A stretch of DNA of 64,000 nt. It comes from a virus. Its lineage: Duplodnaviria; Caudoviricetes. The stretch lies in the IMG/VR virus record IMGVR_UViG_3300021375_000006. One strand, 5' to 3'. Positions 18,606-35,372 of the stretch are shown piece after piece; position 1 is the first letter of the stretch; each line of letters starts with the position of its first letter. The notes under the pieces were generated by a model. That model had not been told where the DNA came from. It saw only the letters and a list, made by a program, of their open reading frames with translations, and ran no database searches. The translations under genes were made by a program, and so were the position numbers.

Positions 18606-19343
18606 TTATCGCTTGTTTTTTTGTCTTTCTATTTCCATCCACTTCTTACCAATCGGATTAGAGACTGGTTGCTTTAGGAATTTTCTAATCTCTTTCCCGA
18701 CTAGATCAATAGGTGTTGAGTCCCCATATTCAGAATTATCTACAATCTCAAAACGTTTCGCCTTGAATAGTCTCTGAAACTTACCTAGATTCTGTTGCAC
18801 CTCATCCCACATCTTAATTACCATATCTTTAGGTAATTTTCGCGGTCTAGCAGCATTTCTCTCTAGTGCAACTTCTAATGATGTATTAACGAAGATCATA
18901 TAACAATCATAGCCAAGACCTCTTAGTCTTTCAACCTGACCTTCAATCTTCTTATAGTTCTTACCAGTACCATCAATAATCATACCGAGTCTACCAGTAA
19001 TATACATCTCTTGAGTACCCTTGGTTAACTTCTTGGCTCTGTCTCTTAACTGCATGGCTTTATCCCATGAGTCTTCACTACCGTCTTTCATTGACATAAG
19101 GTTAGTCATATCAATACCTGCCTTCTTTAGTAATATCTCGAACGCGGCGTCAGAGTTGACCAGCTTAAGACCATTATCATAAGATACAGTACCAAAATCA
19201 TCAGTCTTAGGTAGGGCGAATAATTCTTTCGCGACGTAAGACTTGCCAGAACCAGGTCCTCCAGCCATAAAGAATGCCTTAAGTATACTAGGGTCATTAA
19301 CTCCTTCTTGTAAGAAGTTTTCAAATGTTTTAAAAATTTTCAT
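18606..19343 (-). CDS. Zeta-toxin-like/AAA_33 P-loop kinase with an N-terminal capsid-targeting-like peptide
   Basis: FMAGGPGSGKS and IIDGTG. N-terminus MKIFKTFENFLQE-G (ATG at 19343). Confidence 0.7.
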   Translation of the reverse strand: MKIFKTFENFLQEGVNDPSILKAFFMAGGPGSGKSYVAKELFALPKTDDFGTVSYDNGLKLVNSDAAFEILLKKAGIDMTNLMSMKDGSEDSWDKAMQLRDRAKKLTKGTQEMYITGRLGMIIDGTGKNYKKIEGQVERLRGLGYDCYMIFVNTSLEVALERNAARPRKLPKDMVIKMWDEVQQNLGKFQRLFKAKRFEIVDNSEYGDSTPIDLVGKEIRKFLKQPVSNPIGKKWMEIERQKNKR

Positions 19344-19384
19344 GTACAACGACTTTTTTACTACTATATTATATATCTAATTCA

Positions 19385-19405
19385 CCGGTCGTTTAATACG
19401 ACCGG
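19385..19405. other. Perfect 8-bp hairpin CCGGTCGT-TTAAT-ACGACCGG at the left edge of the GC-rich island
   Basis: Inverted repeat read directly from the sequence. Confidence 0.7.
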
Positions 19406-19887
19406 AGTGGTTAAAAAAGTGCCAGAAGGGGTCGCGCGCGGGGCAGATTGGGTTCCACCTTGCCTAGGGCGTTATTTTTGTCCACGAAGTGTTCAACGAA
19501 TCAGATTGATGATGACGCGTTACCTCACTGCAACTCCAGTGGCCAGCAGGTGCCTATGTGCTGCAGAGCCTCTGTTACAAGAAGTGCTGCTGTCCACATG
19601 CCGTTCCTCATCTGGATCCGCGTTACCTATCTGCAATTAGTGTCCTCACTGGTATTAAGTGCCCTATCTGCCTTAGGGGTTCGCTGGTCAGGCCAGGCCC
19701 TAAGCGGCCAGCTGGGGCCAGTTGTCTGGAAGGCCAACCTTACTGACAGAAATGAAAAACGCTCCGAATTTTTTTCCCAGTGACCTCAGAGGAATCTGAG
19801 GAATCGTCGCTGATCTCACCACCTAGTCTTGGAGTTCCTTTTAGAATGCGAAGTGCTCAAAGACTCGTGGTGCTGACATTTGCTCAC

Positions 19888-19914
19888 AAAAAAAGCTGCT
19901 CAGAGGCAGCCTTT
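19888..19914 (-). terminator. Rho-independent terminator after 19937..20686
   Basis: Minus strand GCTGC-CTCTGA-GCAGC followed by T7. Confidence 0.75.
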
Positions 19915-19936
19915 AATGTTTTATAGTTAGTTAGAG

Positions 19937-20686
19937 TTACTTAGTCAGGATCCAGCCAATAGCCACATCACCAATAGTCTCTTCAATGTCTGCACTATTT
20001 TCCCAGAATTTTGGATCTGCTATACCATGACGAGTACCTGCTAAATACGTAATCACATATACTGGATATGAGCCGTCTTTAACTAATTCCCATTTATATT
20101 CTTTTTTATAGTCAAGATCTTCTAATTCTTCACCAATTTCTTCAAAAGAATCTGCTTTCTTTACTGCCTTCTTTAAGGCTTTGAGCATTTTCGTAGTCTC
20201 TACGATTGTAGAATACTCATTTACAAATGATTCGAATGTTGGTACGTATTTCATAGTTGTTTGCTTACCTTCATAGACTTCACCGTTTTCCCATATCCAT
20301 AATTCAGTACCATTACCTTCAGTTGCACTTGACATATAAACTGAACCCATGCCACCTTTTAGTTTAACTGGGAAACATGCGCCGGCAGAATCATAACCTT
20401 CTTCTTCTACCCAACGTTTAGCCTCTTCATCATCAACAAAATTACCATCAGCATCGGGCATACCACCTTCTCTATAAAGTACAAAACAATCTTTTGCATT
20501 GATTGTACCTGAGTATAACCACTGATCGCCGTAGTCATCGTCTTCCTCTTTAGGTATTTCTGTATCTCCGAATGAGAAATGAGGAGCTAACTCCATTGCT
20601 TTCTCTTGAGCTTTTCTTTTATTGTTGAATGCGAACATTTCCATTGTGTCGCCATCCTTTTCTGCTATCCAAAATATCTTTGCCAT
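19937..20686 (-). CDS. Acidic hypothetical protein, candidate internal head protein
   Basis: Intact ORF with an internal MKYVPTFESFVNE motif. Confidence 0.6.
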   Translation of the reverse strand: MAKIFWIAEKDGDTMEMFAFNNKRKAQEKAMELAPHFSFGDTEIPKEEDDDYGDQWLYSGTINAKDCFVLYREGGMPDADGNFVDDEEAKRWVEEEGYDSAGACFPVKLKGGMGSVYMSSATEGNGTELWIWENGEVYEGKQTTMKYVPTFESFVNEYSTIVETTKMLKALKKAVKKADSFEEIGEELEDLDYKKEYKWELVKDGSYPVYVITYLAGTRHGIADPKFWENSADIEETIGDVAIGWILTK

Positions 20687-20702
20687 AATTTATATATTGT
20701 TG

Positions 20703-21569
20703 TTACCAACTTGCGGCCCAAACGAATTCGAAGCCATGTTTTTTACAGAAAGGCTCGATTAGATCTGAGATCTTAGCCTGAGCGTTTTCATATTTAGTAT
20801 ATTCTTTTGAAGACATCATTTTATCTGCTGAGTCACCGTACTCATCTGGGTGTCTTAATTCTCTTGGCTCATCTGTCTTGTAATAGACTGCTTTATCACC
20901 CATACTAAGTCTAGGAGATCTAAGTTCAATCCATCTACTAACTTTTCTTGCGTTCTCTTTTGCAATGTTATATTGCTTCATGATTTTTGGCTCTAGTTTA
21001 GCCCACTCTTTTTTAATTTTATCCTGTGCTTTAAATTCAGCTAGGGCAGTCTTTACATCGAATGGTTTACCATGTACTCTCTCGAAGTCATTAAATACAC
21101 CAACAATATCTTCCATAAATTTATCGAATTGAGAGATCGACTGATATGAACCGTGAATTGTGCCCATACCAAACTCTCTTTCTGGCGTACCTGGATCGGA
21201 TGGCTTAATAGTACCATTAAACATTGTTGCAAATGAGTAATTAGGCTGTCTTGTAGAGTTTGCAGAGCTAAACTTAAAAATAGTTTGATTGTAAGATTTA
21301 CCACCTAGTTCAATCGTCACCGTTAGATTACCACCATAATTCCAGGCTGATCTATAAACTGTTGCTTTCATCGACTTAGCGATGTTAGGGATATTAGCTC
21401 TTAAGTATTCTGCTAATTTAATACCTTTACCGAAGTTATAGCTGCCTTGGTAGGCTTTCTTACCTTCTGCTGATTTCTTAGCAATCTTAATAAATTGTCT
21501 TAGAGTATAAGGTTCGCCCTGGTTAAATAGGGGCTCTCTTGTTATTTCGTCGTATAGTAATTCAGCCAT
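20703..21569 (-). CDS. Hypothetical protein
   Basis: Intact 288-aa ORF in a tightly packed operon. Confidence 0.6.
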   Translation of the reverse strand: MAELLYDEITREPLFNQGEPYTLRQFIKIAKKSAEGKKAYQGSYNFGKGIKLAEYLRANIPNIAKSMKATVYRSAWNYGGNLTVTIELGGKSYNQTIFKFSSANSTRQPNYSFATMFNGTIKPSDPGTPEREFGMGTIHGSYQSISQFDKFMEDIVGVFNDFERVHGKPFDVKTALAEFKAQDKIKKEWAKLEPKIMKQYNIAKENARKVSRWIELRSPRLSMGDKAVYYKTDEPRELRHPDEYGDSADKMMSSKEYTKYENAQAKISDLIEPFCKKHGFEFVWAASW

Positions 21570-21575
21570 TGCTTA

Positions 21576-21902
21576 TTATTTATTTAATAATTTTAGTATG
21601 TAATCCATGTTAAGATAGAAAGAATAACCAGCACCTTGATAACTATGGTCCTGTTCAACAGTAAAGCTTTGTCTATATTTCTTTAAGATTCTATTAATAG
21701 TATCTTCAATATCTTTACCAATTGCACTAGGATCACCTATTTCTATTTCTTTATCATTGTCTTTGCCAGTAGAAGCCATGGCTAGAAAGCCACCTTGTCC
21801 ATATCTATAGGAAAGTCTATAGTTAATAACTTTATCGTTAGTAACTACTTGGAAATTCTTCTCGTTTAAAAACTGTTCGAATAATTTTGCTTTAATACCC
21901 AT
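21576..21902 (-). CDS. Hypothetical protein with a capsid-targeting-like N-terminus
   Basis: MGIKAKLFEQFLNE-K. Confidence 0.6.
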   Translation of the reverse strand: MGIKAKLFEQFLNEKNFQVVTNDKVINYRLSYRYGQGGFLAMASTGKDNDKEIEIGDPSAIGKDIEDTINRILKKYRQSFTVEQDHSYQGAGYSFYLNMDYILKLLNK

Positions 21903-22069
21903 TATTTTGATAATACATTTTTACTTAATATTAATGGAGATTTATCTGGTCCAGTTGTAATGTAATAACAAACTTCTCCTTCTGTTATTAATATAGGTTT
22001 ATCCTTAAATGTTTTAGAATAATGCTCTAATACATAAGCCTTTAGGGATTCTACCAGTTTATCTTCCAT
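21902..22069 (-). CDS. Small 55-aa protein missing from the ORF track
   Basis: MEDKLVESLKAYVLEHYSKTFKDKPILITEGEVCYYITTGPDKSPLILSKNVLSK. Fills the gap exactly, with TAATG overlaps at both ends. Confidence 0.6.
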   Translation of the reverse strand: MEDKLVESLKAYVLEHYSKTFKDKPILITEGEVCYYITTGPDKSPLILSKNVLSK

Positions 22070-23532
22070 TATGCTTTCTTCAATTTTTTATCGTGTCCGC
22101 CATCTCTAACCTCTTTTGCAAGATCTTTATCAGCGTTACCCCAAGTACCTTCACCTTTTGTTAAGAATGCATTTACTCTTGCATAACCCCATTGTTGTTG
22201 ATTAGCACCTGGTCTGTGACCTGATTTCCATGCTGCTAGACCTCTTCTCATTACCGCTCTGATAATTCCAATTGGTACACCAGTATCTTCTGCTTTCTTC
22301 TTTAGTGCAGTTTCAATTTTATCATCATCTAGAGGACCTCTATCTGTTGATTTTTGTTCTGTATCATCAGCTTCATGAACTGGGTTTTCAGGAGTAACTG
22401 TTTCGTCTACGATTTCAACTGGCTCTAGGAAAGTACCAATTCTATCATCATAAGACATAACAAACTTCTCACCAGAATCAGTAACATGTTTGTTGAATTT
22501 CTTAATCTTCTTCCAGTCTTTGTTGGTCATCTTCTGAGTTTCTACTACACCATCGTCGCCATCTACAACGTCATAGAGCGTATTTAAGTAGTCCTCTGCC
22601 TTAACTATTTTACCATACATCCAAGCATCTAACCCTTTACCAGCGGCCATTCTATCGCGTAACATGGTAGCATAGTCAATGATTCTCTCTAATTGTGCAA
22701 AAGCCATTTGATCTTGTTGCTCATTAGCTTCTACAATCTCTTCATTGAAGTCTCCGTCATGTGCTAATTTACCTTTAAATCTTTTTAAGGCATCTTCAAT
22801 CTTTTTAACATCTTGTAAATCTAGAGTAACCATTTCCATACCAGCATTATCTGCTACTTGAAGTGCTGGATAATAACTGAATTGTTTTGGTAGTTTACCT
22901 AATTTAAGTTTAGTTTTTAAATACTTTAGGGCTTGTTCTAATCTCTCTTGAGTAAACGGAACACCTTGCATATAGAATAAGCCAGTGCGGCCATCATATC
23001 CCATTGCCATTTCATTTACTTTAGACTCTTCAATAGTATCATCATATAGAGATGATGCCCATTCTTCACTGTCCTTGCTCTTTTTAATCTTAGCACCATA
23101 CTCTTTAAAGAACTTCTTAAGAAAGTCTTCTTTAGATTTTGCTTCACCAGCCATTTGATGAATATCTGACATAGTACCTTCGTCTAGTGCTTCGCTATAT
23201 AGTTTATTGTAGGCTTTAGTGGCTTTAGAAGTTTTTACTTCACCTTTCTCTCTTGCCTCTTCATCACCAGGCATTTCTTTGTAAGCATCTGGATCATCAT
23301 CGTCCATTTTAGCCTGCTTCTTAATTTGATCTTCTTTATCCTCTACCTCATCATCTTCTAGACCTCTGTGATATGGATCCGGGCCTGGTTTTTTATCAGC
23401 TTCATCTATACCTCTACCGTAATGAGAAATATATTCTTCACGAGTCATACCTAATCTTTCTGCGTGAAACTGAATAAAGTCAACGAAGTTGTCCTGCCCA
23501 TTCCAATGTATTGAACCATCTACTATTCCCAT
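22069..23532 (-). CDS. Acidic multi-segment protein with a C-terminal DUF5824-like domain; candidate head protein
   Basis: C-terminal LKKKAEDTG...RRGLAAWKSGHRPGANQQQWGYARVNAFL (domain name recalled, unverified). Many (L/I/V)-x-E sites. Confidence 0.6.
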   Translation of the reverse strand: MGIVDGSIHWNGQDNFVDFIQFHAERLGMTREEYISHYGRGIDEADKKPGPDPYHRGLEDDEVEDKEDQIKKQAKMDDDDPDAYKEMPGDEEAREKGEVKTSKATKAYNKLYSEALDEGTMSDIHQMAGEAKSKEDFLKKFFKEYGAKIKKSKDSEEWASSLYDDTIEESKVNEMAMGYDGRTGLFYMQGVPFTQERLEQALKYLKTKLKLGKLPKQFSYYPALQVADNAGMEMVTLDLQDVKKIEDALKRFKGKLAHDGDFNEEIVEANEQQDQMAFAQLERIIDYATMLRDRMAAGKGLDAWMYGKIVKAEDYLNTLYDVVDGDDGVVETQKMTNKDWKKIKKFNKHVTDSGEKFVMSYDDRIGTFLEPVEIVDETVTPENPVHEADDTEQKSTDRGPLDDDKIETALKKKAEDTGVPIGIIRAVMRRGLAAWKSGHRPGANQQQWGYARVNAFLTKGEGTWGNADKDLAKEVRDGGHDKKLKKA

Positions 23533-23534
23533 AA

Positions 23535-24119
23535 TTACCTTAGTTTTAATTTTGCTTTTTTGAAAGCATCTTTAACTTGTAACATTAACTTATGTTCGTA
23601 ACCTGGACCTCTAAAATCACCACCGATTTCGTATGCTTCTTCTTTTAGTTCATTTGCTAATGCTAGAGCTTTATCATAGAATTCTTGCTCTGCAATATCC
23701 ATTCTACCATCTTCATCATCAGAGATTGTACCATCTGCATTAGCTTCATTTAGGCTGTTGAATTCTTCTAGCTTGTTAGCCTCATCTAAGTTCTCTTTGA
23801 TTTCATTATAGAAACCATCATACTCAGCTTCAATATCCTCGCCGTACACTTTTTGCCAGATTTCAGCAACATCCTTTTTAGTAACCTTGTTCTTGTATTT
23901 ACCAGTTACTTCTTGGTAGAAACCTTGGTATTCATCTTCCATGTCTTCACCATACACGAATTCCCATGCTTTAGCTAGGTCTTTGAATTTATACTTCTTT
24001 GCTTCTTCTAACGATTCGTATGCTGATTTATTGCCACCGCAACCACAGTTACCGCCACATTGGCAAGGATCTTTCTTAGTCTGCTCGAATTCCTCAAGCA
24101 TTGGTAATTTATTAGCCAT
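23535..24119 (-). CDS. Acidic hypothetical protein with an internal tandem duplication
   Basis: Two copies of K.KD.A..W..VYGED.E.EY.GFY.E. Confidence 0.6.
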   Translation of the reverse strand: MANKLPMLEEFEQTKKDPCQCGGNCGCGGNKSAYESLEEAKKYKFKDLAKAWEFVYGEDMEDEYQGFYQEVTGKYKNKVTKKDVAEIWQKVYGEDIEAEYDGFYNEIKENLDEANKLEEFNSLNEANADGTISDDEDGRMDIAEQEFYDKALALANELKEEAYEIGGDFRGPGYEHKLMLQVKDAFKKAKLKLR

Positions 24120-24155
24120 GATATACTTTTATGTTTGTTATTATTATAGTATATA

Positions 24156-24743
24156 TCAATCTAAAAATAACTCTTTGAGATTATGTCTTTCAATGATTTC
24201 TATAAGAGCCTTATCATAATTTTTAGCCTCAGCATAGTTTTTATCTAAATAGTTTAAATACTTCTTTTCAGTACGTAATTTATTTAGATATGCAGCTTGG
24301 TAAAGTGCATAATCCGTTACTGATTCTTTCCAATCATCATAGAATGCATGTCCTAGTTGAGTACCATTTGCTGTAGTAGCTCTGGCTCTAGCCTGCTTCA
24401 TACCAAATAGGTTATGGTTTTCTTGATAGATTCTACTTTCCCAATATCCAGTCTCTAAGATGGATTGAGCTAATACAATATGTGGAAATCTAATATTAAG
24501 TTTTTTGATTTCTTCAACAAGAGCCTCTTGTGAGAATATATCTTCAGGCGAGTCTAAGACAAGTAACTCTGTTTCTATTGGTTCATTTAGGGCTTCTTTA
24601 AAGCCATCTTCATGTGCATTAGAAACCATTGAGGTTAGGGCTATATAGCCGATTACAGCTATTCCAATTAAACTAAGATAGTGTTTTCTTTGTGGAACCA
24701 CTTTTCGATATGAAAGAGATTCTTTACAATAGGTGTATAACAT
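24156..24743 (-). CDS. Glucosaminidase (GH73-like peptidoglycan hydrolase) with a membrane anchor
   Basis: FPHIVLAQSILETG and NHNLFGMK motifs, plus an N-terminal hydrophobic helix. Confidence 0.75.
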   Translation of the reverse strand: MLYTYCKESLSYRKVVPQRKHYLSLIGIAVIGYIALTSMVSNAHEDGFKEALNEPIETELLVLDSPEDIFSQEALVEEIKKLNIRFPHIVLAQSILETGYWESRIYQENHNLFGMKQARARATTANGTQLGHAFYDDWKESVTDYALYQAAYLNKLRTEKKYLNYLDKNYAEAKNYDKALIEIIERHNLKELFLD

Positions 24744-24760
24744 AATAGATTGTTTTATTA

Positions 24761-24807
24761 CAGTACTAATATAACAAAAAAAAGTGACATAAAAAAATAA
24801 AATGGCA
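24761..24807 (-). promoter_or_regulatory. Conserved promoter-like element, copy 1 (TGCC-N6-T7-ATGTCA-N11-TATATTAGTACT)
   Basis: Identical spacing at 24761, 50320 and 58294, each just upstream of a minus-strand ATG. Confidence 0.7.
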
Positions 24808-24847
24808 CTTTTTTTGTAAAAACTTTGTACTGAACCCCCAGTATATG

Positions 24848-25255: not shown

Positions 25256-25260
25256 AAATC

Positions 25261-26418: not shown

Positions 26419-26421
26419 ATA

Positions 26422-26733: not shown

Positions 26734-26958
26734 TTAGAAGATAAAATCAAATGTCTGCTTCAGTTCCTTTGCATCTTTACTTTCTGGTTCTACATCGAAC
26801 TCAGTATATAGATGTTGATAAATGGCATCCCAATTATCATCGTCGGCTAGACTATCTAATTCTTTCTTGTTTTTCTTTATATATTTCTTAATGTCGGACT
26901 CAATGCCTTCATTAAGATGTTTAAACTCTGTTAGAGTTACAATCTTTTTATTTCTCAT
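26734..26958 (-). CDS. Small protein with a capsid-targeting-like N-terminus
   Basis: MRNKKIVTLTEFKHLNE-G. Confidence 0.55.
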   Translation of the reverse strand: MRNKKIVTLTEFKHLNEGIESDIKKYIKKNKKELDSLADDDNWDAIYQHLYTEFDVEPESKDAKELKQTFDFIF

Positions 26959-27787
26959 CTTTTTGCTCTAGGATTTTTTCAACATCTAATTCTAAGTATG
27001 CTAAATCCTCAGCTTCTTCTAAAGATAATTGTAGGTTTCTATCTTTACCTGCAACTGCATCATCCAATTCTTTTTCTAAGTCAGCTTTTTGTTTATTAAG
27101 CTCTCTTAGTTTTTGCATTAGTTCTTCTTTTCTATCACCTTCCGCGTCTTTCCATTCTTTAACAGTAGTAGACATAGCTAGTACTGTAGCTGCATGGTCT
27201 TTTGAGATCTTATTAATAGATCTGCCTTCATTAAGACCTAATGATTCTTTTAGAGACTCCCAAGTTAATTTTGGCTTCTCTGACTCATAGTATTCATCTT
27301 CATAATCGTCATACTCAGGCTCTTGATACCATGATTGATTTGGATCTGACTCTGCTTCTTTAGTGAAATCATGTCTCTTCCAATTGTATTTTCCATCAGC
27401 AACTAAAGCTGGGAAGAGGACTTTCTTCCCTTTATCTTTAGTCTTTAATTTTTTGAAAGCTAGGCTAATGCCTATGTCTCTCATCTCTTTGCCATAACTC
27501 ATAGCCTTTGAGACTTTTTTGTCTTCCAAGTCTTCTTCTGAATACCCATTCATTTTGGCTAATAACTCATAGTAATCCATGCCACCGAATACACCGTAGC
27601 CTTGATAATGTTTCTCATACCAAGAGTTGCCTTGATTGTCATACATCCATACATCAATAGTATTCTCACGCTCAGATCCAATTTGTTGATCTGTATCGTA
27701 AGTAAACCATGAGAATTGACCTTCGTTTAAAACTTTAGGGTTGTATGGATTAAATGTCTTCTTAGTTAAGTTTACGTAATTAGCCAT
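26948..27787 (-). CDS. Hypothetical phage protein, candidate head protein
   Basis: KVLNE-G near the N-terminus and a second GLNE-G internally. YQGYGVFGGMDYYELLA block. Confidence 0.6.
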   Translation of the reverse strand: MANYVNLTKKTFNPYNPKVLNEGQFSWFTYDTDQQIGSERENTIDVWMYDNQGNSWYEKHYQGYGVFGGMDYYELLAKMNGYSEEDLEDKKVSKAMSYGKEMRDIGISLAFKKLKTKDKGKKVLFPALVADGKYNWKRHDFTKEAESDPNQSWYQEPEYDDYEDEYYESEKPKLTWESLKESLGLNEGRSINKISKDHAATVLAMSTTVKEWKDAEGDRKEELMQKLRELNKQKADLEKELDDAVAGKDRNLQLSLEEAEDLAYLELDVEKILEQKDEK

Positions 27788-27796
27788 AATATAGGT

Positions 27797-28285: not shown

Positions 28286-28293
28286 AACTGCTT

Positions 28294-28491
28294 TTAAGCT
28301 GGACCTCCGACTCCGAAATAAACCCAAATTGCGTGATCGTCTGCAACGTTTCCGACATCGTCTACATGTTTTTGGTCGTTGAACCAATCATTTAATGTAT
28401 TGACATCTTGTGATTCGTTTAAGGATTGACTTTTGCTTTTTGGCTCGATCTCAGAAGGATTGACAGCTTCTGGATTGAGTTGTTTAGCCAT
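28294..28491 (-). CDS. Small hypothetical protein, monocistronic
   Basis: Own GATATATA motif upstream and a terminator downstream. Contains SLNE-S. Confidence 0.5.
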   Translation of the reverse strand: MAKQLNPEAVNPSEIEPKSKSQSLNESQDVNTLNDWFNDQKHVDDVGNVADDHAIWVYFGVGGPA

Positions 28492-28604
28492 GACCTTAAA
28501 GTTTATTTAATGTTTGAGATATACTCTCATATTATATATCATCTAGACTACAAAAAGTTTATCAAAAAAACCATTTTTTTAAAAATTTAATTTTCTGATA
28601 ACAT

Positions 28605-28636: not shown

Positions 28637-28658
28637 AGAATCGGAGTTTTGATACTTT

Positions 28659-30023
28659 TTATAGGTATCTCTCAGCCATACGTTTCCAGTTGCTTAGTCC
28701 TGCCATTTTAAATCCGGCTGCTTTTACAAATGTTCTCATTGAAACGTCTTTAGCTTGCTTCATAAATTCGAAAATCTCTTCTTTATCTTTCATCGGCATA
28801 TCAGTTGGCTCTAAGTGTGGTAAGAGTTTTGCCATTCTTTCCATTAGAGTTGCATCGTCTGGATTCACGTCAATCAAAATCGATCTAGATCTAATTGCTC
28901 CATCTGGATCTGCCTTATCTTTTGGTAAGTTGGAGATGAAAATCACTCTACCAGCAAATTCAAATGTATTAGGTACAATACCTGCTTCTTGCATATTGAA
29001 TTCACCTTCTGGATCCATCTCAAAATCTTTAGGATCGTAAACTGCTTTAGTCTTCTTTAAATATGAAATCTTTCTAACCTTTTTAGTGTCTAATGCAGCC
29101 TTCATTAAGTTTCTACCATTCTCATCTCTAAATACTGCGTCACAATCATCAAATACTAATGTACCATTTCTATATTGGAAAAACTTCTTATACATCATAA
29201 TTACGGATGCGGCTCCTGATACTAATACATAGTCATCATCTTCTACAAGTCCTTCATCTCTTAATGCTCTTTCAACGTTGTAAGTTTTACCTGTACCTGC
29301 TCTACCTGATATGAATAATGAATTGAAAGCACCCGCACCAACGCTTCTTGAGATTTGGTAGATGTCTTCCATTGTTTCTTCTAAGTATTTTACTTTATCA
29401 TCAAGAGTTACTTGGTTTTGCTTTTCAGCAGCAGAAGCTACTGGTACAACACTAACACCCTTCTTAATTCTTGAAATTTGTCTATAAGGTATATCTAGAT
29501 CTACTGAAATAGACTTAACTGAATCACCAGCTGCAAGTCTATCATTTATCTGCTTTAAATCTGCAGTGGATAGGGCTCTAGATTTTGCTTCAGTCACTAA
29601 AGACTCAGCAATAACCTCTTCCATATATTTGTTATCATTTACTAATCTAGCAAACTCATCTAATAATTTTACGATAGGTAATTTATTGTGTCCTGACTCT
29701 AAGCTAAAATCTGCGTTAGACTTTGAAGCGTCTGAAAAGAACTGTAATGAACCGATAATACCAGCTACACCAGATGTATTGTCTGATACTCTAAATGCTT
29801 GTGCACCTTTATCTGAGTAAAACATAACACCAGTGTTCTCTTGTCCATCGATAGTTGCAGTTACTGCAAATGGAAATTTCTTAAACTTTAAGCCTGTTTT
29901 CTTATTAACATATTTAGCTACAATATCTGCTGCTTTAGATAGAGCTGGTTTTACATACTCTACTTTAGCTGCAAATGCATTAGCCTCGTTAATAAATTCT
30001 GATAAGTTTGGTAATCTGTTCAT
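28659..30023 (-). CDS. AAA+ ATPase with a capsid-targeting-like N-terminus
   Basis: ISGRAGTGKT, LVFDDCD, AIRSRS. Starts MNRLPNLSEFINE-A. Confidence 0.75.
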   Translation of the reverse strand: MNRLPNLSEFINEANAFAAKVEYVKPALSKAADIVAKYVNKKTGLKFKKFPFAVTATIDGQENTGVMFYSDKGAQAFRVSDNTSGVAGIIGSLQFFSDASKSNADFSLESGHNKLPIVKLLDEFARLVNDNKYMEEVIAESLVTEAKSRALSTADLKQINDRLAAGDSVKSISVDLDIPYRQISRIKKGVSVVPVASAAEKQNQVTLDDKVKYLEETMEDIYQISRSVGAGAFNSLFISGRAGTGKTYNVERALRDEGLVEDDDYVLVSGAASVIMMYKKFFQYRNGTLVFDDCDAVFRDENGRNLMKAALDTKKVRKISYLKKTKAVYDPKDFEMDPEGEFNMQEAGIVPNTFEFAGRVIFISNLPKDKADPDGAIRSRSILIDVNPDDATLMERMAKLLPHLEPTDMPMKDKEEIFEFMKQAKDVSMRTFVKAAGFKMAGLSNWKRMAERYL

Positions 30024-30034
30024 AATCTATTTTA

Positions 30035-31180
30035 TCACTTATTTAATGATATTTTCCAAGCATCAGAAGTTGGTTTATCCTGCCAGCTTGGTTGGGTATA
30101 TTTTACATTCTTACTAAGCCAAGATGTCATATTATTAGAAGAACTAACTGGTAAGTAAGCTAATTTTTTAGCATTTGGTTCTATTAAGAATATTCCATTA
30201 AAATACTCTTGTGATTGGTAATACAAAATGTTTTGCCACATTAGAGCGTAGTTCAACATAGTGTCATCTTTAGGAGACCCATCTGCATTTACATATTTCT
30301 TAAAAGCATCAACTACACCATTTCTAATAGAACTATTTGCATTAATCCAAATACCGGATGAGCTGCAGAACATAGTATCTGCTAATAATTCAAAAACCTC
30401 GTTAAGATCTACACCCTCCTTAACGCAGGCTTTAAACATCTCGTAAAAAGTACTTCTACCTCCTTTTAGAAAGTTAAATCCTTGGATAGTTTTTTTATTG
30501 GCTCTATCCATACTGAATTTAGACCATACAAATATATTAATTTGTCTTTTTCCAAACTCTTTAAAGAAATGCAATATTGCCTGCTGTCCAGTACCAAATC
30601 CGTTTTGGGTGTTCAATCTTGCATCTTTTGCTTTTACTTCGTATGGCTTTCCGTTAACATTAACATCACCAACAGAAGCGTTAGTTGCACCATTTACCAT
30701 AAATCCTAAAAACAATTCACCTCTACCAACGCCTTTACCAGATTTTTGTTTACCTGCCATTGAGAATATTTCACCTACAACCTTTTTAGGTAAACCAAAA
30801 TCCTTTTCCATTTGAGAAGGTACATCAGTAGGTGAAGTCATTTCAGTAAAGTAGTCCACATCTACCGGATTCTTAATATAATCAATAAAGGATTTTAATG
30901 ATTCCTCAGATTCCTTTTGTAATAGTTTCTCAATATTACCCCAGTCACCATCACTAAAACCTTTAGTCTCTACAAAATAAGTCTTAATCTCTGAAATAGG
31001 ACCAAAATTATCAATATAATCCGCAGTATCTGTTAATTTATCTGAAATAATCTTCTTCTTGGCATCGTCCATTGCGTCAATCTCAGATGATTTAGAAGTA
31101 ATTCTATCTAAAGCCTTCTGAAAATCTTCGTTTAGCAGAGCTGCCGCGAATCTTGCTCTATAGTCTCCTTGTGTTGCCAT
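30035..31180 (-). CDS. Putative PD-(D/E)XK nuclease-fold protein
   Basis: GVGRGE...GDVNVNGKPYEVKA motif. N-terminal LLNE-D. Confidence 0.5.
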   Translation of the reverse strand: MATQGDYRARFAAALLNEDFQKALDRITSKSSEIDAMDDAKKKIISDKLTDTADYIDNFGPISEIKTYFVETKGFSDGDWGNIEKLLQKESEESLKSFIDYIKNPVDVDYFTEMTSPTDVPSQMEKDFGLPKKVVGEIFSMAGKQKSGKGVGRGELFLGFMVNGATNASVGDVNVNGKPYEVKAKDARLNTQNGFGTGQQAILHFFKEFGKRQINIFVWSKFSMDRANKKTIQGFNFLKGGRSTFYEMFKACVKEGVDLNEVFELLADTMFCSSSGIWINANSSIRNGVVDAFKKYVNADGSPKDDTMLNYALMWQNILYYQSQEYFNGIFLIEPNAKKLAYLPVSSSNNMTSWLSKNVKYTQPSWQDKPTSDAWKISLNK

Positions 31181-31182
31181 GT

Positions 31183-31791
31183 TTAATATTTAGGTTTTTT
31201 TGCCTTCTTAGTATATATCTTTATGTTATCATACTCCTTCTCGAGAGATTTAACCAGCTTTAGATTAGCCACATCGTCATCGTAGAACTTAAAGTCAGTA
31301 TAACCCATGTTGATATATGTTTCAAATGCCTGTTTCTTTCTGTCAGCAATATTACCTGTAAATCCATGGACATTATCTGAAATAGCAAATATTAAGTCTT
31401 TGTCAATTCTAAATCCAACATGTTCTCTTAGCCACTTGTAAATCATCTCTCTGTCATCTCTAGCAGTTACAATACCGACTGCAATACCCTTCTTATAGTT
31501 TCTTTTGAAAATGTTTAAGTAGTATTCAATCAGCTTACCTGCTTTCATGATTTCAATATCAGAGAAATCAGTAAAGTCTAACTCATGTTGTTTCTTAGCT
31601 TCAAATTCGTTGAATTCTTCTGGAGTTAATGAGAAGCACTTGCCTGTGAAATGGTCACACACTTTAATCTTCGCGTCTGTAATCACTAGAGTGTCATCTA
31701 AGTCAAAGACCACGATCTCTGATTTAGAATAAGGTTTCTCTGTTACAAGAAAAGCCTCGAATGTTTTAATATGTTTCACTTGGCGTAACAA
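31183..31791 (-). CDS. HAD-superfamily phosphatase with a capsid-targeting-like N-terminus (probable GTG start at 31779)
   Basis: VVFDLDDTL, VTAR, FYDDD. Begins (M)KHIKTFEAFLVTE-K. Confidence 0.75.
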   Translation of the reverse strand: MLRQVKHIKTFEAFLVTEKPYSKSEIVVFDLDDTLVITDAKIKVCDHFTGKCFSLTPEEFNEFEAKKQHELDFTDFSDIEIMKAGKLIEYYLNIFKRNYKKGIAVGIVTARDDREMIYKWLREHVGFRIDKDLIFAISDNVHGFTGNIADRKKQAFETYINMGYTDFKFYDDDVANLKLVKSLEKEYDNIKIYTKKAKKPKY

Positions 31792-32503
31792 CTCCTCTTT
31801 TTTGTACTACTTTAGCTGACATTTCATTTGCATATTTAATTGAATGTTCTACATCTTTACTGTTAACATATTCAATTGCAAATGCTGCAACAAAAGTATC
31901 GCCGGCACCAGAAACATCAATAGTCTCTTGTGGTCTAGGGCTTGGGAATAGTTTATCTTGATATTCGGCGCCCTTTGCACCTAGAGTCGTAATAATGCCT
32001 GGATGTTCCAGCTTATTATTATTTATCCTTTCAGATTCATTTAATTTAATAAATGTATAATTAGCCATCATTTTATTAGTTAAAGGTCTCTTACTATCAA
32101 TAATTGATAACGGAGCCATTAAACCAATATCATAGATGTCTTTGTTAGACAAGAAGCCTTTATTATAGTCACTGACTATCACTAGGTCATACCCCTCTAA
32201 GTAGGTTAGGTCTTTATCAAATGTAGAAATCTGCTCTTCACCCTCATCGTATCTGATGAACATGTGGTTAGATTTCTTTTCTACGAATCTTGTTTTTGTA
32301 ATCTGTTCTGATTGAGTCCATAACTCAATATTGGCATCGGGGGCAATAGCCAAGCAATTAGCCATTGTATTGCCTGCCATCCCTGGATTTTCTATAGTTT
32401 CTACAGGAGTAATAACAGGTACTGGCGCTTCAGGGGACAGACGTCCCACATTACCGTATATAAATCTATCGGTACAGCTATCTCCTATAATTAATATTTT
32501 CAT
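31766..32503 (-). CDS. hldA: D-glycero-D-manno-heptose-7-phosphate kinase (HldE/RfaE kinase domain, PfkB family)
   Basis: IIGDSCTDRFIYG, RLSPEAPVPV, SDYNKG, DVSGAGDT. Confidence 0.85.
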   Translation of the reverse strand: MKILIIGDSCTDRFIYGNVGRLSPEAPVPVITPVETIENPGMAGNTMANCLAIAPDANIELWTQSEQITKTRFVEKKSNHMFIRYDEGEEQISTFDKDLTYLEGYDLVIVSDYNKGFLSNKDIYDIGLMAPLSIIDSKRPLTNKMMANYTFIKLNESERINNNKLEHPGIITTLGAKGAEYQDKLFPSPRPQETIDVSGAGDTFVAAFAIEYVNSKDVEHSIKYANEMSAKVVQKRGVVTPSETY

Positions 32504-32865
32504 CCTTGGGAATCTCCTTTGCGAATTCTGTAGCTATCTTCATCGAAGTGTTGTGTTGATACTTCAAATATTTCTGAGCCATCTTCTAGTGCTACTAACT
32601 GATGTGGTTGGCCTCTTTCAATGGTGATACATGCACCTTCTTTTACTATTGTAGAATCTTCTACTGCACCTTCGGTATCAATCCAGATATATTCAAATGA
32701 ACCCTTACCAACATACCAAGACTCTTTCTTAATAATATGATAATGCATTGAGAATCTACTACCCTTCTTATGAAATCTTAGTAATTTTCCACAATACTCT
32801 TCGTCGTTGTGAATCCAAATCTCTTCGCCCCATGCTTTAGGTACTATTTTAGGTTGTACTATCAT
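32500..32865 (-). CDS. Cupin sugar-phosphate isomerase-like protein
   Basis: VPKAWGEEIW, SMHYH..K.E, GQPH, IFEVST cupin motifs. Confidence 0.7.
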   Translation of the reverse strand: MIVQPKIVPKAWGEEIWIHNDEEYCGKLLRFHKKGSRFSMHYHIIKKESWYVGKGSFEYIWIDTEGAVEDSTIVKEGACITIERGQPHQLVALEDGSEIFEVSTQHFDEDSYRIRKGDSQG

Positions 32866-33581
32866 AATTCTTCTATTCTTTTTGCTTTGTCATCAATAAC
32901 CAAGTCAAAGCTGGGTTTTGTTTCTAAACCTGACTCAGACCAACCCACCACTAAGTTATTGTACTTACATCCCCATTCATTGAGTTGTGCCGTTGTCAAA
33001 TTAGTTAAATCTCTTTTTGAATGACCACCTCTAGCTGTCCAATATGTAATATGCCAGCCAGCTTCATATAGTTTATTTATTTTGCTTATATTAGTCGCAT
33101 TAGGTTTAGCATTTTGATATACTCTTTTACCCTCGTAGAAACAAATGGTTTCATCTATATCAACGTATGCCTTCTTTTGATCAGTATTATATAATTTGCT
33201 TTCTAGTACCTCAGTGGTCGAGTAGTCGCCTATTCGATCAAAGAAAACTACTTCACCAGCATGTTCTGCGCCTACGATTTCTTTGCCCTTCCAATCAGAG
33301 CCCACTACCATTACATCTGGTTTGAATTTAGCCACTAGATCAATTAGACCCTGTTTAGTATCAAAGGTCTCTACTAGATCAATATATTGAATGGATTCTA
33401 GAGCGAACTTTCTATCCTCTAGTTTATTATGAGGTCTATCTGGGCCCTTTGCCCTAGCCACCTTTTCGTCTGAGTCAATGCCTACAATAACTTTATCGCC
33501 TAATTCACTGGCAAATTTAAAGAGCTCAAAGTGACCTCTATGTAGAACATCAAAACATCCATTAACCCAAACTCTTTTCAT
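32862..33581 (-). CDS. hldC: Heptose-1-phosphate nucleotidyltransferase (HldE/RfaE domain II) fused to a C-terminal HAD phosphatase domain
   Basis: NGCFDVLHRGH, VGIDSD, VVGSDW, GDYSTT, then YVDIDETI, YWTARG, IDDKA. Confidence 0.8.
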   Translation of the reverse strand: MKRVWVNGCFDVLHRGHFELFKFASELGDKVIVGIDSDEKVARAKGPDRPHNKLEDRKFALESIQYIDLVETFDTKQGLIDLVAKFKPDVMVVGSDWKGKEIVGAEHAGEVVFFDRIGDYSTTEVLESKLYNTDQKKAYVDIDETICFYEGKRVYQNAKPNATNISKINKLYEAGWHITYWTARGGHSKRDLTNLTTAQLNEWGCKYNNLVVGWSESGLETKPSFDLVIDDKAKRIEEL

Positions 33582-33616
33582 ATCTCTGCATTTACAGGGT
33601 TTATATGGTTAAAAAC

Positions 33617-34540
33617 CTAATTGTTTCCTCTAGAACCTGAAGATCTGCTGCGTGAATTACTACTTGAAGAAGAACTAGAACGTCTAGTAGGTGGAGGTGT
33701 TGTAGATCTAACGTTATTAGTACTTCTATTGTTAACGTTATTTGGTACTCTAGGTTTCCAGTTATTGTTTCTTGTATTATTAGGATTTACTCTAATATTA
33801 TTGTTATTATCATTAGGTCTTCTATAGATTCTTACAGTCTCACCATTATCTCTAATGATTACATTATTATCCGGGTTAATTCTAGGATTATTGTATGATC
33901 TTACTGTACGAGTATTATTACTATTAGTTCTACGTCTATTAACATTAGACTCAATTGTAGAATTAGTTCTATTAGAGACTATGCTACTACCTCTTCTACC
34001 ATTTACATAAACGGTATTGGGTCTATTTCTATGTTGCCATGCATAGTTGTTCATTCTCCATCTCCAGTTCCAGTCATTGTAATATCCATTCCAGCCATAG
34101 TAACTATTCCAACCCCAGCCCCAGTGAGCATTGCCCATCCAGTTATTATATCCCCATCTATCATATCCAAATAGTGACCATCTATGTGGTGTGAAACCCC
34201 ATACCCAGTCATTCCACATTTGATCTCTATTCCAGTAGTAGCCATAATAAGGGCTGTTCCAACCATATCTAGTACCTAATAATCTATTATTCCAATCAAA
34301 TGATCTAGGTTGACTTAGAGCATATTGTGCAAAGTCATATCTAAATTGAAAATCTGTTCTTAATCTATTTCTAAATTGAAATTCATTTAGGGTATCAATA
34401 GCTACATCATCTGAAACCACTATATAATTTTCATCATCATATATTGGGTCATAATTAAGTGTTGATACGTGCCAGTTAACTCCACATGATGTTAATAAAA
34501 CTAGTGATAGAATTGTAAGTAATCTTTTAAGTGTTTTCAT
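33617..34540 (-). CDS. Bacteroidota-type lipoprotein with a W/Y/G/N-rich region and a disordered R/S/N tail
   Basis: Lipobox LLTS-C and low-complexity composition. Confidence 0.6.
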   Translation of the reverse strand: MKTLKRLLTILSLVLLTSCGVNWHVSTLNYDPIYDDENYIVVSDDVAIDTLNEFQFRNRLRTDFQFRYDFAQYALSQPRSFDWNNRLLGTRYGWNSPYYGYYWNRDQMWNDWVWGFTPHRWSLFGYDRWGYNNWMGNAHWGWGWNSYYGWNGYYNDWNWRWRMNNYAWQHRNRPNTVYVNGRRGSSIVSNRTNSTIESNVNRRRTNSNNTRTVRSYNNPRINPDNNVIIRDNGETVRIYRRPNDNNNNIRVNPNNTRNNNWKPRVPNNVNNRSTNNVRSTTPPPTRRSSSSSSSNSRSRSSGSRGNN

Positions 34541-34554
34541 ATATTTGTTTTATG

Positions 34555-34878
34555 TTATTTTTCTTTGTATTCCTGAAATGCTTCACTATTTGGTAGATCT
34601 TTCTCTATTTGTAAAGACCATAGTGAGCTATTTGGGACTACGAACTTTCTTCCATGGCCATAAACATAAAACGTAGTTTTCCAAATAGTTTGTCTAACTA
34701 TTCTTGCTTTCTTTGTACCTTTAATATAGACTACGTCATCTATATCAAAATCAGTACCCATCAAAAACTTCATACCGCTAAAAAAGTTGGCTATTGCATC
34801 TTTAAATGCTAAACCAGCTAAAGCAGCGATTGTTAACCAACCCCATTCTCCAATATACTGTGATAATAACTCTTCCAC
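34555..34878 (-). CDS. Minimal MscS-like membrane protein
   Basis: GLAFKDAIANFFSG...FDIDDVVYI...VVPNSSL matches the MscS TM3/beta-domain pattern. Confidence 0.6.
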   Translation of the reverse strand: MEELLSQYIGEWGWLTIAALAGLAFKDAIANFFSGMKFLMGTDFDIDDVVYIKGTKKARIVRQTIWKTTFYVYGHGRKFVVPNSSLWSLQIEKDLPNSEAFQEYKEK

Positions 34879-35372
34879 TATATTAATCCTTTGTTTGTTA
34901 GATTCTGCAGTAAACTGTATTGACTAATCATTACATGTTTTACCGCTTCATCTCTATTCATAAATACAGCTCGGTCTACTTCTTTTAACTGTAGTTGGCC
35001 CTTAGGAATTTCTAATCCTTTCAGACCGATTTCCGCTAGATCTTTTATCTCTACAATATAGTAGTGTACAACCTTGTTATATTTGTACTTTCTACTGGTA
35101 ACTGTAAACGTAAAAGCATCTTTATTGATTAAAGATTTAGGTACTTTAATACCAAACTCTTCTCTAGTCTCTCTGATTGCTGCATCTAAAATTGATTCTC
35201 CTTCATCAATTCCACCCTTTGAAATACCATACGATGCTAGCTTCTTTCTGCCAGTGCTATGTCCTAATAGAACTTTGCCATCATGTACAATGGCCAAACC
35301 TGCAGACCGTCTCTCTTCCAGAAACTTCTTAGCCTCGTTAATATAGTTATCAAAGTTTGCAATTCTTTTCAT
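34878..35372 (-). CDS. NUDIX hydrolase with a capsid-targeting-like N-terminus
   Basis: GGIDEGESILDAAIRETREEFG Nudix box. Starts MKRIANFDNYINE-A. Confidence 0.8.
   Translation of the reverse strand: MKRIANFDNYINEAKKFLEERRSAGLAIVHDGKVLLGHSTGRKKLASYGISKGGIDEGESILDAAIRETREEFGIKVPKSLINKDAFTFTVTSRKYKYNKVVHYYIVEIKDLAEIGLKGLEIPKGQLQLKEVDRAVFMNRDEAVKHVMISQYSLLQNLTNKGLI

What the first reader, a model, noticed from the sequence alone, without database searches (positions are those of the whole stretch)
18606..35372. A catalogue of enzymes tagged with a T4-like capsid-targeting/prohead-cleavage peptide
Seen: unrelated ORFs share an N-terminal motif ending in Glu. MKIFKTFENFLQE (kinase, 19343), LFEQFLNE (21902), LTEFKHLNE (26958), KVLNE (27787), LSEFINE (AAA ATPase, 30023), ALLNE (nuclease-like, 31180), IKTFEAFLVTE (HAD, 31779), IANFDNYINE (NUDIX, 35372). 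Established: T4 internal proteins carry the capsid-targeting sequence MKTYQEFIAE, which gp21 removes after (I/L)-x-E. Inference: the tag marks a large set of packaged proteins, possibly injected with the DNA, so the cargo can be read from sequence. A kinase, phosphatase, NUDIX, ATPase and nuclease suggest an immediate nucleotide-signal or anti-defence toolkit.
Basis: partly seen in the sequence, partly recalled or inferred. Interest (0 to 1): 0.85.

Follow-up and report, generated by a model that had tools for sequence, protein, structure and literature searches.

The report
Capsid-loading tags on phage enzymes
A cluster of unrelated enzymes in an uncultured marine T4-like jumbo phage each start with a 13-residue tag that closely resembles the peptide phage T4 uses to load proteins into its head and then cuts off, so the phage probably injects a ready-made enzyme kit with its DNA, though no experiment has shown this.

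Summary
All eight N-termini are at the stated coordinates. Five are canonical tags of the form M-K-x-Φ-K-x-F-E-x-F-Φ-N-E with the Glu at residue 13 or 14: the kinase, the 108-aa protein, the ATPase, the HAD protein and the NUDIX protein. Three are degenerate; homologues show that two of these derive from canonical tags.

A scoring matrix trained only on relatives puts 5 of the 6 best hits among 19,800 window positions at N-termini. Shuffled proteins give 0.05.

The spacing matches the T4 capsid-targeting sequence: aromatic at -6 and -3, Leu/Ile/Val at -2, Glu at 0. Related phages encode a T4-type head protease (Peptidase_S77) next to the portal and Gp23 genes. Their head-core protein starts ..KTFEDFIAE, against T4's KTYQEFIAE.

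The tag is a detachable module. NUDIX homologues occur with and without it, and the tagless forms start where cleavage is predicted. Tagged genes lie behind the same late promoter as the head genes.

Published mass spectrometry of phage Atu_ph07 finds the kinase homologue in virions, apparently processed.

Packaging in this phage is inferred, not shown, and the anti-defence role is speculative. This scan has reported similar tag sets in other T4-related jumbo phages.

The parts
18606..19343 (-). P-loop kinase (Zeta_toxin/AAA_33; weak similarity to polynucleotide kinase) with a canonical 13-residue tag MKIFKTFENFLQE|G
   Evidence: Pfam and PHROGs. PSSM score 14.7 with Glu at residue 13. All 120 close homologues are tagged. 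Melnitz, HTVC008M and RsoM2USA homologues are tagged, and the Atu_ph07 homologue is a virion protein.
19370..19377 (-). Late-promoter-like GATATATA box 27 nt upstream of the kinase start
   Evidence: The same box precedes the portal, core, protease and other head genes in L188. All 9 of 9 window copies are on the coding strand.
19937..20686 (-). 249-aa two-module protein: N-terminal MAKIFWIAE| plus a complete internal tag MKYVPTFESFVNE| at residues 145-157
   Evidence: PSSM score 19.2, the only strong internal hit in the window. Pfam and PHROGs find nothing.
21576..21902 (-). 108-aa protein with the best-scoring canonical tag, MGIKAKLFEQFLNE|K
   Evidence: PSSM score 22.0 with Glu at residue 14. 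This family was not in the training set.
22069..23532 (-). 487-aa protein with C-terminal DUF5824 and several internal x-N-E junctions (candidate polyprotein); no N-terminal tag here
   Evidence: Pfam. The L173 homologue starts MRFIRDFKQFITE|. A DUF5824 gene sits next to the kinase in HTVC008M.
23535..24119 (-). 194-aa acidic protein directly behind a late-promoter box (24150-24157); internal ..EEFNSLNE|A at residue 125
26734..26958 (-). 74-aa protein with a degenerate tag, ..LTEFKHLNE|G
   Evidence: Not canonical by PSSM. No homologue evidence.
26948..27787 (-). 279-aa protein with a degenerate tag ..PKVLNE|GQFSW and a second LNE|G at residue 187
   Evidence: The L173 homologue has the canonical MKYIKSRIDFINE, then ..NNLNE|GQFSW. 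The presequences are unrelated but the junction is conserved.
28294..28491 (-). 65-aa protein behind a late-promoter box (28533-28540); ..SQSLNE|S at residue 26
   Evidence: Weak PSSM score of 5.2.
28659..30023 (-). 454-aa P-loop ATPase (C-terminal half resembles T4 NrdC.11, PHROG 1250) with the tag MNRLPNLSEFINE|A
   Evidence: All 13 distinct relatives keep a Φ-x-x-Φ-[LIV]-x-E|A tag while its sequence varies. In relatives the gene sits beside the head module.
30035..31180 (-). 381-aa protein with an invariant E155/D172/E181-x-K183 (PD-(D/E)xK-like) motif and a degenerate tag ..RARFAAALLNE|D; late-promoter box at 31212-31219
   Evidence: Of 47 homologues, the distant ones start MLKFKEFxEWLNE|A. 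AF2 gives pLDDT 88 with residues 1-15 below 50. No PDB fold match.
31183..31779 (-). 198-aa HAD-type phosphatase (DLDDT motif; resembles the T4 Pnk phosphatase domain) with the tag MKHIKTFEAFLVTE|K from a GTG start
   Evidence: Pfam below cut-off. PHROG 415 at 2.6e-10. PSSM 11.4. JGI gene calls use the same start.
34878..35372 (-). 164-aa NUDIX hydrolase with the tag MKRIANFDNYINE|A; second gene of a unit starting at the late-promoter box 35703-35710
   Evidence: Pfam. There are 48 or more tagged and 23 tagless homologues, and the tagless forms start where cleavage is predicted.

Best explanation
The 18.6-35.4 kb stretch is a variable 'cargo island' of a roughly 254-kb marine T4-like jumbo phage, probably of a Bacteroidota host. 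Its genes carry a 13-14-residue N-terminal address peptide that works like the T4 capsid-targeting sequence.

Inferred mechanism: late in infection the tagged proteins are made from the same promoter type as the head genes. The amphipathic tag (aromatic at -6 and -3) binds the scaffold core while the prohead assembles. The Peptidase_S77 head protease then cuts after the Glu of Φ-[LIV]-x-E. The tag leaves, and the mature enzymes stay in the head with the DNA and enter the next cell with it. The enzymes are the kinase, the HAD phosphatase, the NUDIX hydrolase, the PD-(D/E)xK-like protein, the NrdC.11-like ATPase and small proteins. Two-module proteins such as 19937-20686 would be cut into pieces.

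Shown: the motif, its enrichment, its modularity, its presence on head proteins of relatives, the protease in the clade, and late-promoter linkage. Inferred: binding, cleavage, packaging, injection, and what the enzymes do.
For: 1. Match to T4. The T4 sequence is MKTYQEFIAE. Positions 4 and 7 serve targeting, positions 8 and 10 serve processing, and gp21 cuts after L/I-x-E (PMC8442874; PMC9026906). The window tags have F/Y/L at -6, F/Y at -3, L/I/V at -2 and E at 0.

2. Head proteins carry the motif. A head-core protein between portal and protease starts MKNDFKIIKTFEDFIAE|D. The major capsid protein starts MANLINE|A. The protease-scaffold has an internal VKDFSNYLAE.

3. The protease is present. 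Peptidase_S77 scores above cut-off in 5 of 5 related IMG/VR records and in L186, beside Portal_T4 and Gp23.

4. Enrichment statistics.

5. Conservation of pattern, not sequence: ATPase 13 of 13, core protein 13 of 15, and all 120 close kinase homologues. The degenerate tags of the 381-aa and 279-aa families trace to canonical ones.

6. Modularity. The NUDIX family has tagged and tagless members. In 40 of 48 tagged forms the tag Glu lies 5 residues before the conserved body motif. In 20 of 23 tagless forms the start Met lies those same 5 residues before it.

7. Late-promoter box GATATATA. It is 9 of 9 on the coding strand and 19-42 nt upstream of starts, including the kinase, the 381-aa/ATPase unit, the NUDIX unit and 24119. 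The same box precedes the head genes in L188.

8. Published virion proteome of Atu_ph07. gp53, a 779-aa fusion containing the kinase homologue, gave 31 unique peptides and 45.5% coverage. It is an 87-kDa product but was most abundant in gel band 9, where about 21-kDa proteins run (PMC6102473 Table S5). gp53-62 all start M[KR]WxQL[NT]E and all were detected in virions. [LIV][NQTA]E within the first 25 residues occurs in 15 of 45 virion proteins against 7 of 87 others (p = 4e-4).
Against: There are no proteomic, N-terminal sequencing or packaging data for this phage or its near relatives.

I could not place the protease and capsid genes on the window's own contig. The link rests on relatives, on near-identical population contigs and on unverified first-stage notes.

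The minimal rule [LIV]-x-E is not enriched, and three of the eight tags are degenerate.

The Atu_ph07 statistic is dominated by one paralogue family. Collapsed, it is about 7 of 37 against 7 of 87 (my estimate, not computed, and probably not significant). That virion preparation was only PEG-purified. The Atu_ph07 virion NUDIX gp257 has no obvious tag.

Untagged sugar-nucleotide genes share the late unit with tagged genes, so late transcription is not specific to tagged genes. T4 NrdC.11 itself is not a known virion protein (my own knowledge). A 51-kDa ATPase and ten or more different cargo species would need considerable head space.
Confidence: 0.62

Rival explanations
1. The peptide is a protease-removable or regulatory propeptide without capsid delivery. 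For example, it might keep the enzymes inactive or unstable until late infection, or hold them to some other assembly. The proteins would act inside the producing cell and would not be injected.
For: Cleavage-site-like ending and late-promoter context. Tagless, presumably cytoplasmic NUDIX homologues exist. Untagged metabolic genes share the operons. T4 NrdC.11 is not a known virion protein (my own knowledge).
Against: In T4 the S77 protease acts inside the prohead (PMC9026906), so a substrate must already be inside. The aromatic positions that serve targeting in T4 are conserved here, not only the cleavage residues. The Atu_ph07 kinase fusion is found in virions.
Confidence: 0.15
2. The motif is a by-product. 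AT-rich 5' codon usage (K, N, F, I, E, L) might combine with descent from one shuffled 5' gene segment to produce look-alike N-termini with no function as an address.
For: All tag residues have AT-rich codons. P0050 carries the 381-aa protein's tag on an unrelated body, which indicates recombination of 5' ends. The region is hypervariable between relatives.
Against: Shuffling residues 2-25 within each protein, which keeps N-terminal composition, gives 4.2 +/- 2.0 families against 13 observed; PSSM hits are 0.05 against 5. The Glu is fixed at residue 13 or 14. The pattern is conserved while the residues vary across orthologues down to 38% identity. No canonical tag occurs in the window genes outside 18.6-35.4 kb or in the 92 ORFs called in the same-genome flank loci.
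Confidence: 0.06
3. The peptide is an address for something other than the capsid. It could be a degron or adaptor-binding helix for a host or phage protease or chaperone, or a signal for membrane or other localisation.
For: It is a short N-terminal amphipathic helix predicted with low confidence and detached from the fold (pLDDT below 50 for residues 1-15). No experiment distinguishes the possible destinations.
Against: The same motif sits on the head-core protein, the capsid protein and the protease-scaffold of relatives. True secreted proteins in the window use ordinary signal peptides instead. The tag is near-identical to the experimentally defined T4 sequence.
Confidence: 0.08

Closest known systems
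Phage T4 capsid-targeting sequence on internal proteins IPI, IPII, IPIII (and the Alt propeptide), removed by the gp21 prohead protease
   Same: An N-terminal peptide with aromatic residues at -6 and -3, Ile/Leu at -2 and Glu at the cut site. It sits on otherwise unrelated proteins, in a phage with T4-type portal, Gp23 capsid protein and Peptidase_S77 protease. The head-core protein of close relatives reads KTFEDFIAE, against T4's KTYQEFIAE.
   Different: The tag is 13-14 residues, not 10, with consensus MK-x-Φ-K-x-F-E-x-F-Φ-N-E and a strong preference for Asn at -1. The cargo is mostly recognisable enzymes (kinase, HAD, NUDIX, ATPase, nuclease-like) rather than small basic proteins. The genes are clustered in one variable island. 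The protease is fused to the scaffold. Nothing has been tested experimentally.
Propeptide-processed head and ejection proteins of giant phages phiKZ, 201phi2-1 and SPN3US
   Same: Many (tens of) head-internal proteins are cut after Glu by a diverged gp21-like protease, and large enzymes are delivered with the DNA.
   Different: Those phages use S/A/G-x-E sites with few other determinants and long propeptides, with no short shared address peptide (PMC9026906). Here the motif is a defined short tag of the T4 type.
Agrobacterium jumbo phage Atu_ph07 virion proteins gp53-gp62 (Attai et al. 2018, PMC6102473)
   Same: It is a T4-core jumbo phage. The proteins start with a shared tag ending L-[NT]-E. 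They are detected in virions by mass spectrometry. gp53 contains a homologue (41% identity) of the window's kinase behind a ..VTE|G junction and appears processed.
   Different: The tag sequence differs (M[KR]WxQL[NT]E, 8 residues). Most members are one paralogue family. The paper does not discuss a tag or cleavage (my reading of its text).

Membership tests
T4-type capsid-targeting sequence / gp21 propeptide system | Short N-terminal peptide with hydrophobic or aromatic residues at the T4 positions 4 and 7 (-6, -3), L/I at -2 and Glu at the cleavage position | tested here: met
   Five canonical tags with Glu at residue 13 or 14, plus one internal copy. PSSM and regex tests. T4 rules from PMC9026906 and PMC8442874. 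Three of the eight listed tags meet only the L-N-E part.
T4-type capsid-targeting sequence / gp21 propeptide system | A gp21-type (Peptidase_S77) prohead protease encoded by the same phage | tested here: inconclusive
   Found above cut-off in 5 of 5 related IMG/VR records (ATPase 60-65% identical) and in L186/L188, contigs that carry exactly the N-terminal strings that first-stage notes report for this genome. Not placed on the window's own contig: the genome is not held and the contig walk stalled.
T4-type capsid-targeting sequence / gp21 propeptide system | The same motif on bona fide head-core and capsid proteins | tested here: met
   Core protein 13 of 15 variants, all capsid-protein variants ([LI][LI]NE|A or KINE|A), and an internal site in the protease-scaffold. 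All of these are in relatives.
T4-type capsid-targeting sequence / gp21 propeptide system | The tag is transferable and modular: unrelated cargo, and dispensable for the fold | tested here: met
   Unrelated Pfam families carry it. The NUDIX family has tagged and tagless members with matching junctions. The same tag sits on a different body in P0050. The tag has pLDDT below 50 in the AF2 model.
T4-type capsid-targeting sequence / gp21 propeptide system | Late expression together with head genes | tested here: met
   The GATATATA box lies upstream of the head genes in L188 and upstream of the tagged units in the window, 9 of 9 on the coding strand. The promoter function itself is inferred.
T4-type capsid-targeting sequence / gp21 propeptide system | Cleavage after the Glu, and presence of the mature protein in virions | not testable with these tools
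   Only indirect support: the Atu_ph07 gp53 kinase fusion is in virions and runs far below its full size (PMC6102473 Table S5).
NUDIX hydrolase (PF00293) | Pfam domain above the gathering score | tested here: met
   46.2 bits against a cut-off of 21.1, residues 21-143.
P-loop kinase, Zeta_toxin/AAA_33 | Pfam domains above the gathering score, with a Walker A motif | tested here: met
   45.4 bits against 22.3 and 40.6 against 27. GGPGSGKS follows the tag. The substrate is unknown; similarity to polynucleotide kinase is weak (PHROG 505).
HAD phosphatase | Family profile above cut-off, and a DxDxT nucleophile motif | tested here: inconclusive
   Pfam hits are below cut-off (17.7-18.8 bits). PHROG 415 'polynucleotide kinase' scores 2.6e-10. 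The FDLDDT motif is visible in the sequence.
PD-(D/E)xK nuclease (381-aa protein) | Restriction-endonuclease-like fold with catalytic D...(D/E)xK | tested here: inconclusive
   E155, D172 and E181-V-K183 are invariant in 32 homologues. Atlas feature hits to restriction enzymes reach only 0.79. Foldseek and VIA-align found no fold match for the body.

The most novel reading that the evidence does not exclude
The tag is a plug-and-play address that lets this phage lineage turn any enzyme into an injected effector by recombining a 40-bp 5' module onto it. The island would then be a fast-evolving, sequence-readable catalogue of pre-made first-minute effectors. One possible set is an RNA/DNA end-healing pair split into kinase and HAD phosphatase, a NUDIX enzyme acting on caps or signalling nucleotides, a nuclease and an ATPase, all aimed at host defence systems. 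The same reading rule would apply across marine and freshwater T4-related jumbo phages.
Probability: 0.3. Interest if true: 0.8.

Novelty: new variant of a known kind. Interest (0 to 1): 0.6.

Why it matters
If the tag works as in T4, the set of proteins a phage injects with its DNA can be read directly from metagenomic sequence. Injected proteins are the first actors of an infection and a likely reservoir of anti-defence functions. This lineage is very abundant in marine metagenomes: the kinase alone has more than 7,800 homologues in the protein collection. The tag would also give a candidate peptide for loading foreign proteins into capsids of non-enterobacterial phages. Finally, it suggests how effectors are gained and lost, because tagged and tagless versions of the same enzyme coexist.

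Tried and rejected
- Megablast of the region against GenBank phages found no match.
- An exact 40-mer from the window was not in IMG/VR.
- No whole genome is held, and metagenome records cannot be searched by handle.
- Five large IMG/VR contigs found through the capsid N-terminus pattern lacked the ATPase and were not used as relatives.
- tblastn of the 117-aa head-core protein against phages found no match.
- I tried to link the window physically to the head module. Look-ups of three window proteins failed or gave short contigs, and walking along ENA contig k141_1450256 gained only about 10 kb in two steps, so I stopped.
- The canonical T4 late promoter TATAAATA is not associated with gene starts here; GATATATA is.
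- For the 381-aa protein, the sequence search of the PDB, Foldseek and VIA-align gave no fold for the body. Only its N-terminal helical hairpin matched, and non-specifically.
- The GC-rich spacer at 19390-19880 has no Rfam family and no unusual folding energy.
- The bare rule [LIV]-x-E was rejected as a useful predictor because it is not enriched.
- Not attempted: calibrating the pattern on the T4 proteome, and a complex prediction of tag with scaffold (the tag is too short for that tool).

Full report
**What the window is.** Almost all genes lie on the minus strand, G+C is about 35%, and there are four tRNA genes. No GenBank phage is similar at the DNA level. The ATPase gene has 48 relatives in IMG/VR at 60-83% identity on contigs up to 179 kb. 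In those contigs it lies beside T4-type genes: clamp, gp46/47, portal and Gp23. The window's own proteins occur on metagenome contigs up to 254,553 bp. Two ENA contigs from one sample, of 157 kb and 94 kb, together cover about that length. Genes just beyond the window carry type IX secretion sorting domains (CHU_C, Por_Secre_tail), which points to a Bacteroidota host. The object is therefore an uncultured marine T4-related jumbo phage.

**The observation.** All eight N-termini exist at the stated starts. Pfam confirms the kinase (Zeta_toxin/AAA_33) and NUDIX. HAD and AAA are supported only below cut-off, helped by PHROGs. The ATPase's C-terminal half matches the T4 NrdC.11 family in about 1,300 T4-like phages.

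**Enrichment.**
- [LIV]NE ends in the first 25 residues 4.8 times more often than elsewhere (p = 6e-4).
- At the level of 179 protein families (window plus relatives), 13 carry it N-terminally. Shuffling each N-terminus gives 4.2 +/- 2.0, reversed sequences give 2, and C-termini give 4.
- A PSSM built only from relatives' tags ranks the 108-aa protein, the ATPase, NUDIX, the kinase and HAD among the six best of about 19,800 positions. Each has its Glu at residue 13 or 14. The sixth hit is an internal copy with its own Met in 19937-20686. Shuffled proteins give 0.05 N-terminal hits.
- No canonical tag occurs in the rest of the window or in the 92 ORFs called in the same-genome flank loci. The tags therefore define an island at 18.6-35.4 kb.
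- The bare L/I/V-x-E rule is not enriched, and three of the eight tags are degenerate.

**Relation to the T4 signal.** T4 internal proteins start MKTYQEFIAE. Residues 4 and 7 serve targeting, residues 8 and 10 serve processing, and gp21 cuts after L/I-x-E (PMC8442874; PMC9026906). The window tags place F/Y/L at -6, F/Y at -3, L/I/V at -2 and E at 0, which is the same register.

Using strings from first-stage notes on other windows of this genome, I recovered metagenome contigs with a T4-type head module. Pfam identifies Portal_T4, a 772-aa protein with Peptidase_S77 at residues 22-138, and Gp23. Between portal and protease lies a 117-aa acidic protein that starts MKNDFKIIKTFEDFIAE|D. That matches six of nine residues of the T4 signal. 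The capsid protein starts MANLINE|A, and the protease-scaffold has an internal VKDFSNYLAE. Five of five related IMG/VR records also hold Peptidase_S77.

I could not place this module on the window's own contig. Those contigs do share a 37-nt intergenic repeat with the window at 90-97% identity.

**Conservation and modularity.**
- All 13 distinct ATPase variants keep the pattern while the residues change: LSEFVNE, FNQFINE, KYDQYLNE, FESFINE.
- All 120 close kinase homologues are tagged. So are the kinases of Methylophilales phage Melnitz, Pelagibacter phage HTVC008M and Ralstonia phage RsoM2USA.
- The degenerate tag of the 381-aa protein becomes a canonical MLKFKEFxEWLNE|A in distant homologues.
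- The 279-aa protein and its L173 homologue have unrelated presequences, but both end LNE|GQFSW.
- The NUDIX family is a natural experiment. At least 48 members have the tag and 23 are tagless 149-aa forms. The tagless start Met lies 5 residues before the conserved body motif, which is the same distance as from the tag Glu in the tagged forms.
- In the AF2 model of the 381-aa protein, residues 1-15 have pLDDT below 50 while the body averages 88.

**Timing.** GATATATA(A) precedes the portal, core, protease-scaffold and other structural genes in L188. In the window all nine copies are on the coding strand. Eight of them lie 19-42 nt upstream of a start: the kinase, 24119, 28491, the 381-aa/ATPase unit, the unit containing NUDIX, and two structural-looking units. 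A different repeat resembling an early promoter precedes 24743, 50306 and 58288, and an RNaseH-like gene in L188. Untagged sugar-nucleotide genes share one late unit, so late transcription is necessary for the model but not specific to tagged genes.

**Experimental precedent.** In the T4-core jumbo phage Atu_ph07, the kinase homologue (41% identity) is one module of the 779-aa gp53. Its sequence runs MKWNDLNE|A.., then ..SEVTE|GVNDK.., followed by two more modules. Table S5 of Attai et al. lists gp53 with 31 unique peptides and 45.5% coverage. It was most abundant in gel band 9, where about 21-kDa proteins run, although the product is 87 kDa (PMC6102473). gp53-62 all begin M[KR]WxQL[NT]E and all were detected in virions. 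Head-module proteins gp199, 200, 204-206, 213 and 215 also begin with tags ending [NT]E or LLE.

In the first 99 kb of that genome the motif marks 15 of 45 virion proteins against 7 of 87 others (p = 4e-4). Nine of the 15 are one paralogue family, so the independent signal is weak. The paper does not mention a tag or cleavage.

**Verdict.** The most likely reading (about 0.6) is a T4-type capsid-targeting and propeptide system, in a 13-residue variant, on a variable set of enzymes. Binding to the scaffold, cleavage, packaging and injection are inferred. The proposed anti-defence or nucleotide-signal role is untested. The kinase and HAD protein weakly resemble the two halves of T4 polynucleotide kinase, and the 381-aa protein has a PD-(D/E)xK-like invariant motif but no fold match.

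The rivals are a propeptide without delivery, a compositional or recombinational by-product, or an address for another destination. Each is less likely for the reasons given in its own section. Similar tag sets have been reported by this scan for other T4-related jumbo phages. I found no paper describing such tags outside the T-even phages among the open-access texts searched.

Noticed in passing
window 19390-19880 (-): A roughly 480-nt non-coding spacer that looks much more G+C-rich than the 35% genome (GC not computed for this stretch alone). It lies between a terminator-like hairpin after gene 20686 and the kinase's late-promoter box. There is no Rfam family (best E = 0.07), the folding energy is not unusual (z = 0.27), and the same 593-nt gap is conserved in JGI contig L004.
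   Followed up: partly
window 24762-24815, 50317-50357, upstream of 58288; L008 13598-16016 (4 copies); L188 17620-17656: A 37-41-nt intergenic repeat, TTTTTTATGTCA..TATATTAGTACTGTAAT, sits 20-30 nt before starts of non-structural genes (RNaseH-like, the ligase operon, glucosaminidase). It is probably the early promoter of this lineage and is 90-97% identical between contigs.
   Followed up: partly
L186 7533-9851; L188 10417-12570: The head protease (Peptidase_S77, residues 22-138) is fused to a long scaffold-like region. The ORF is 705-772 aa and its length varies between population variants. A canonical tag-like site lies at residue 327.
   Followed up: partly
P0050 (homologue search of window 30035-31180): A 368-aa protein carries almost the same first 17 residues as the window's 381-aa protein (MATQGDYRARFAAALNE) on a body that is only 29% identical over half its length. 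This suggests that tags are exchanged by recombination.
   Followed up: no
window 31766-33581 (-): Untagged PfkB-kinase, cupin and cytidylyltransferase genes sit between the tagged NUDIX and HAD genes. They look like a phage-encoded sugar-nucleotide (heptose-like) pathway.
   Followed up: no
window 15510-18203 (-): An 897-aa protein with long Thr/Ala/Pro-rich linkers and repeated SxDxGxxW-like (BNR/Asp-box-like) motifs. It is probably a fibre or surface protein, and its TELNE at residue 22 is probably not a tag.
   Followed up: no
L199 4463-9533 (same genome, about 64-72 kb in window coordinates): Phage genes with CHU_C and Por_Secre_tail (type IX secretion sorting) and cohesin domains. These imply a Bacteroidota host and proteins exported by the host's secretion system.
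   Followed up: no
window about 51200 and about 57600; window about 340: Several independent metagenome assemblies break at the same places: the tRNA-Gly/Ala region, a second point 6 kb further on, and inside the DnaB-like gene in the G+C-rich first 800 bases. This hints at population-variable or repeated segments there.
   Followed up: no
L197 43318-49507 and L207 (Atu_ph07 gp53-62, gp199-215): Ten neighbouring Atu_ph07 virion proteins share the start M[KR]WxQL[NT]E and a Y-R-G-containing N-terminal domain. Its NUDIX gp257 is a virion protein by mass spectrometry (4 peptides, 43% coverage) but has no obvious tag.
   Followed up: partly
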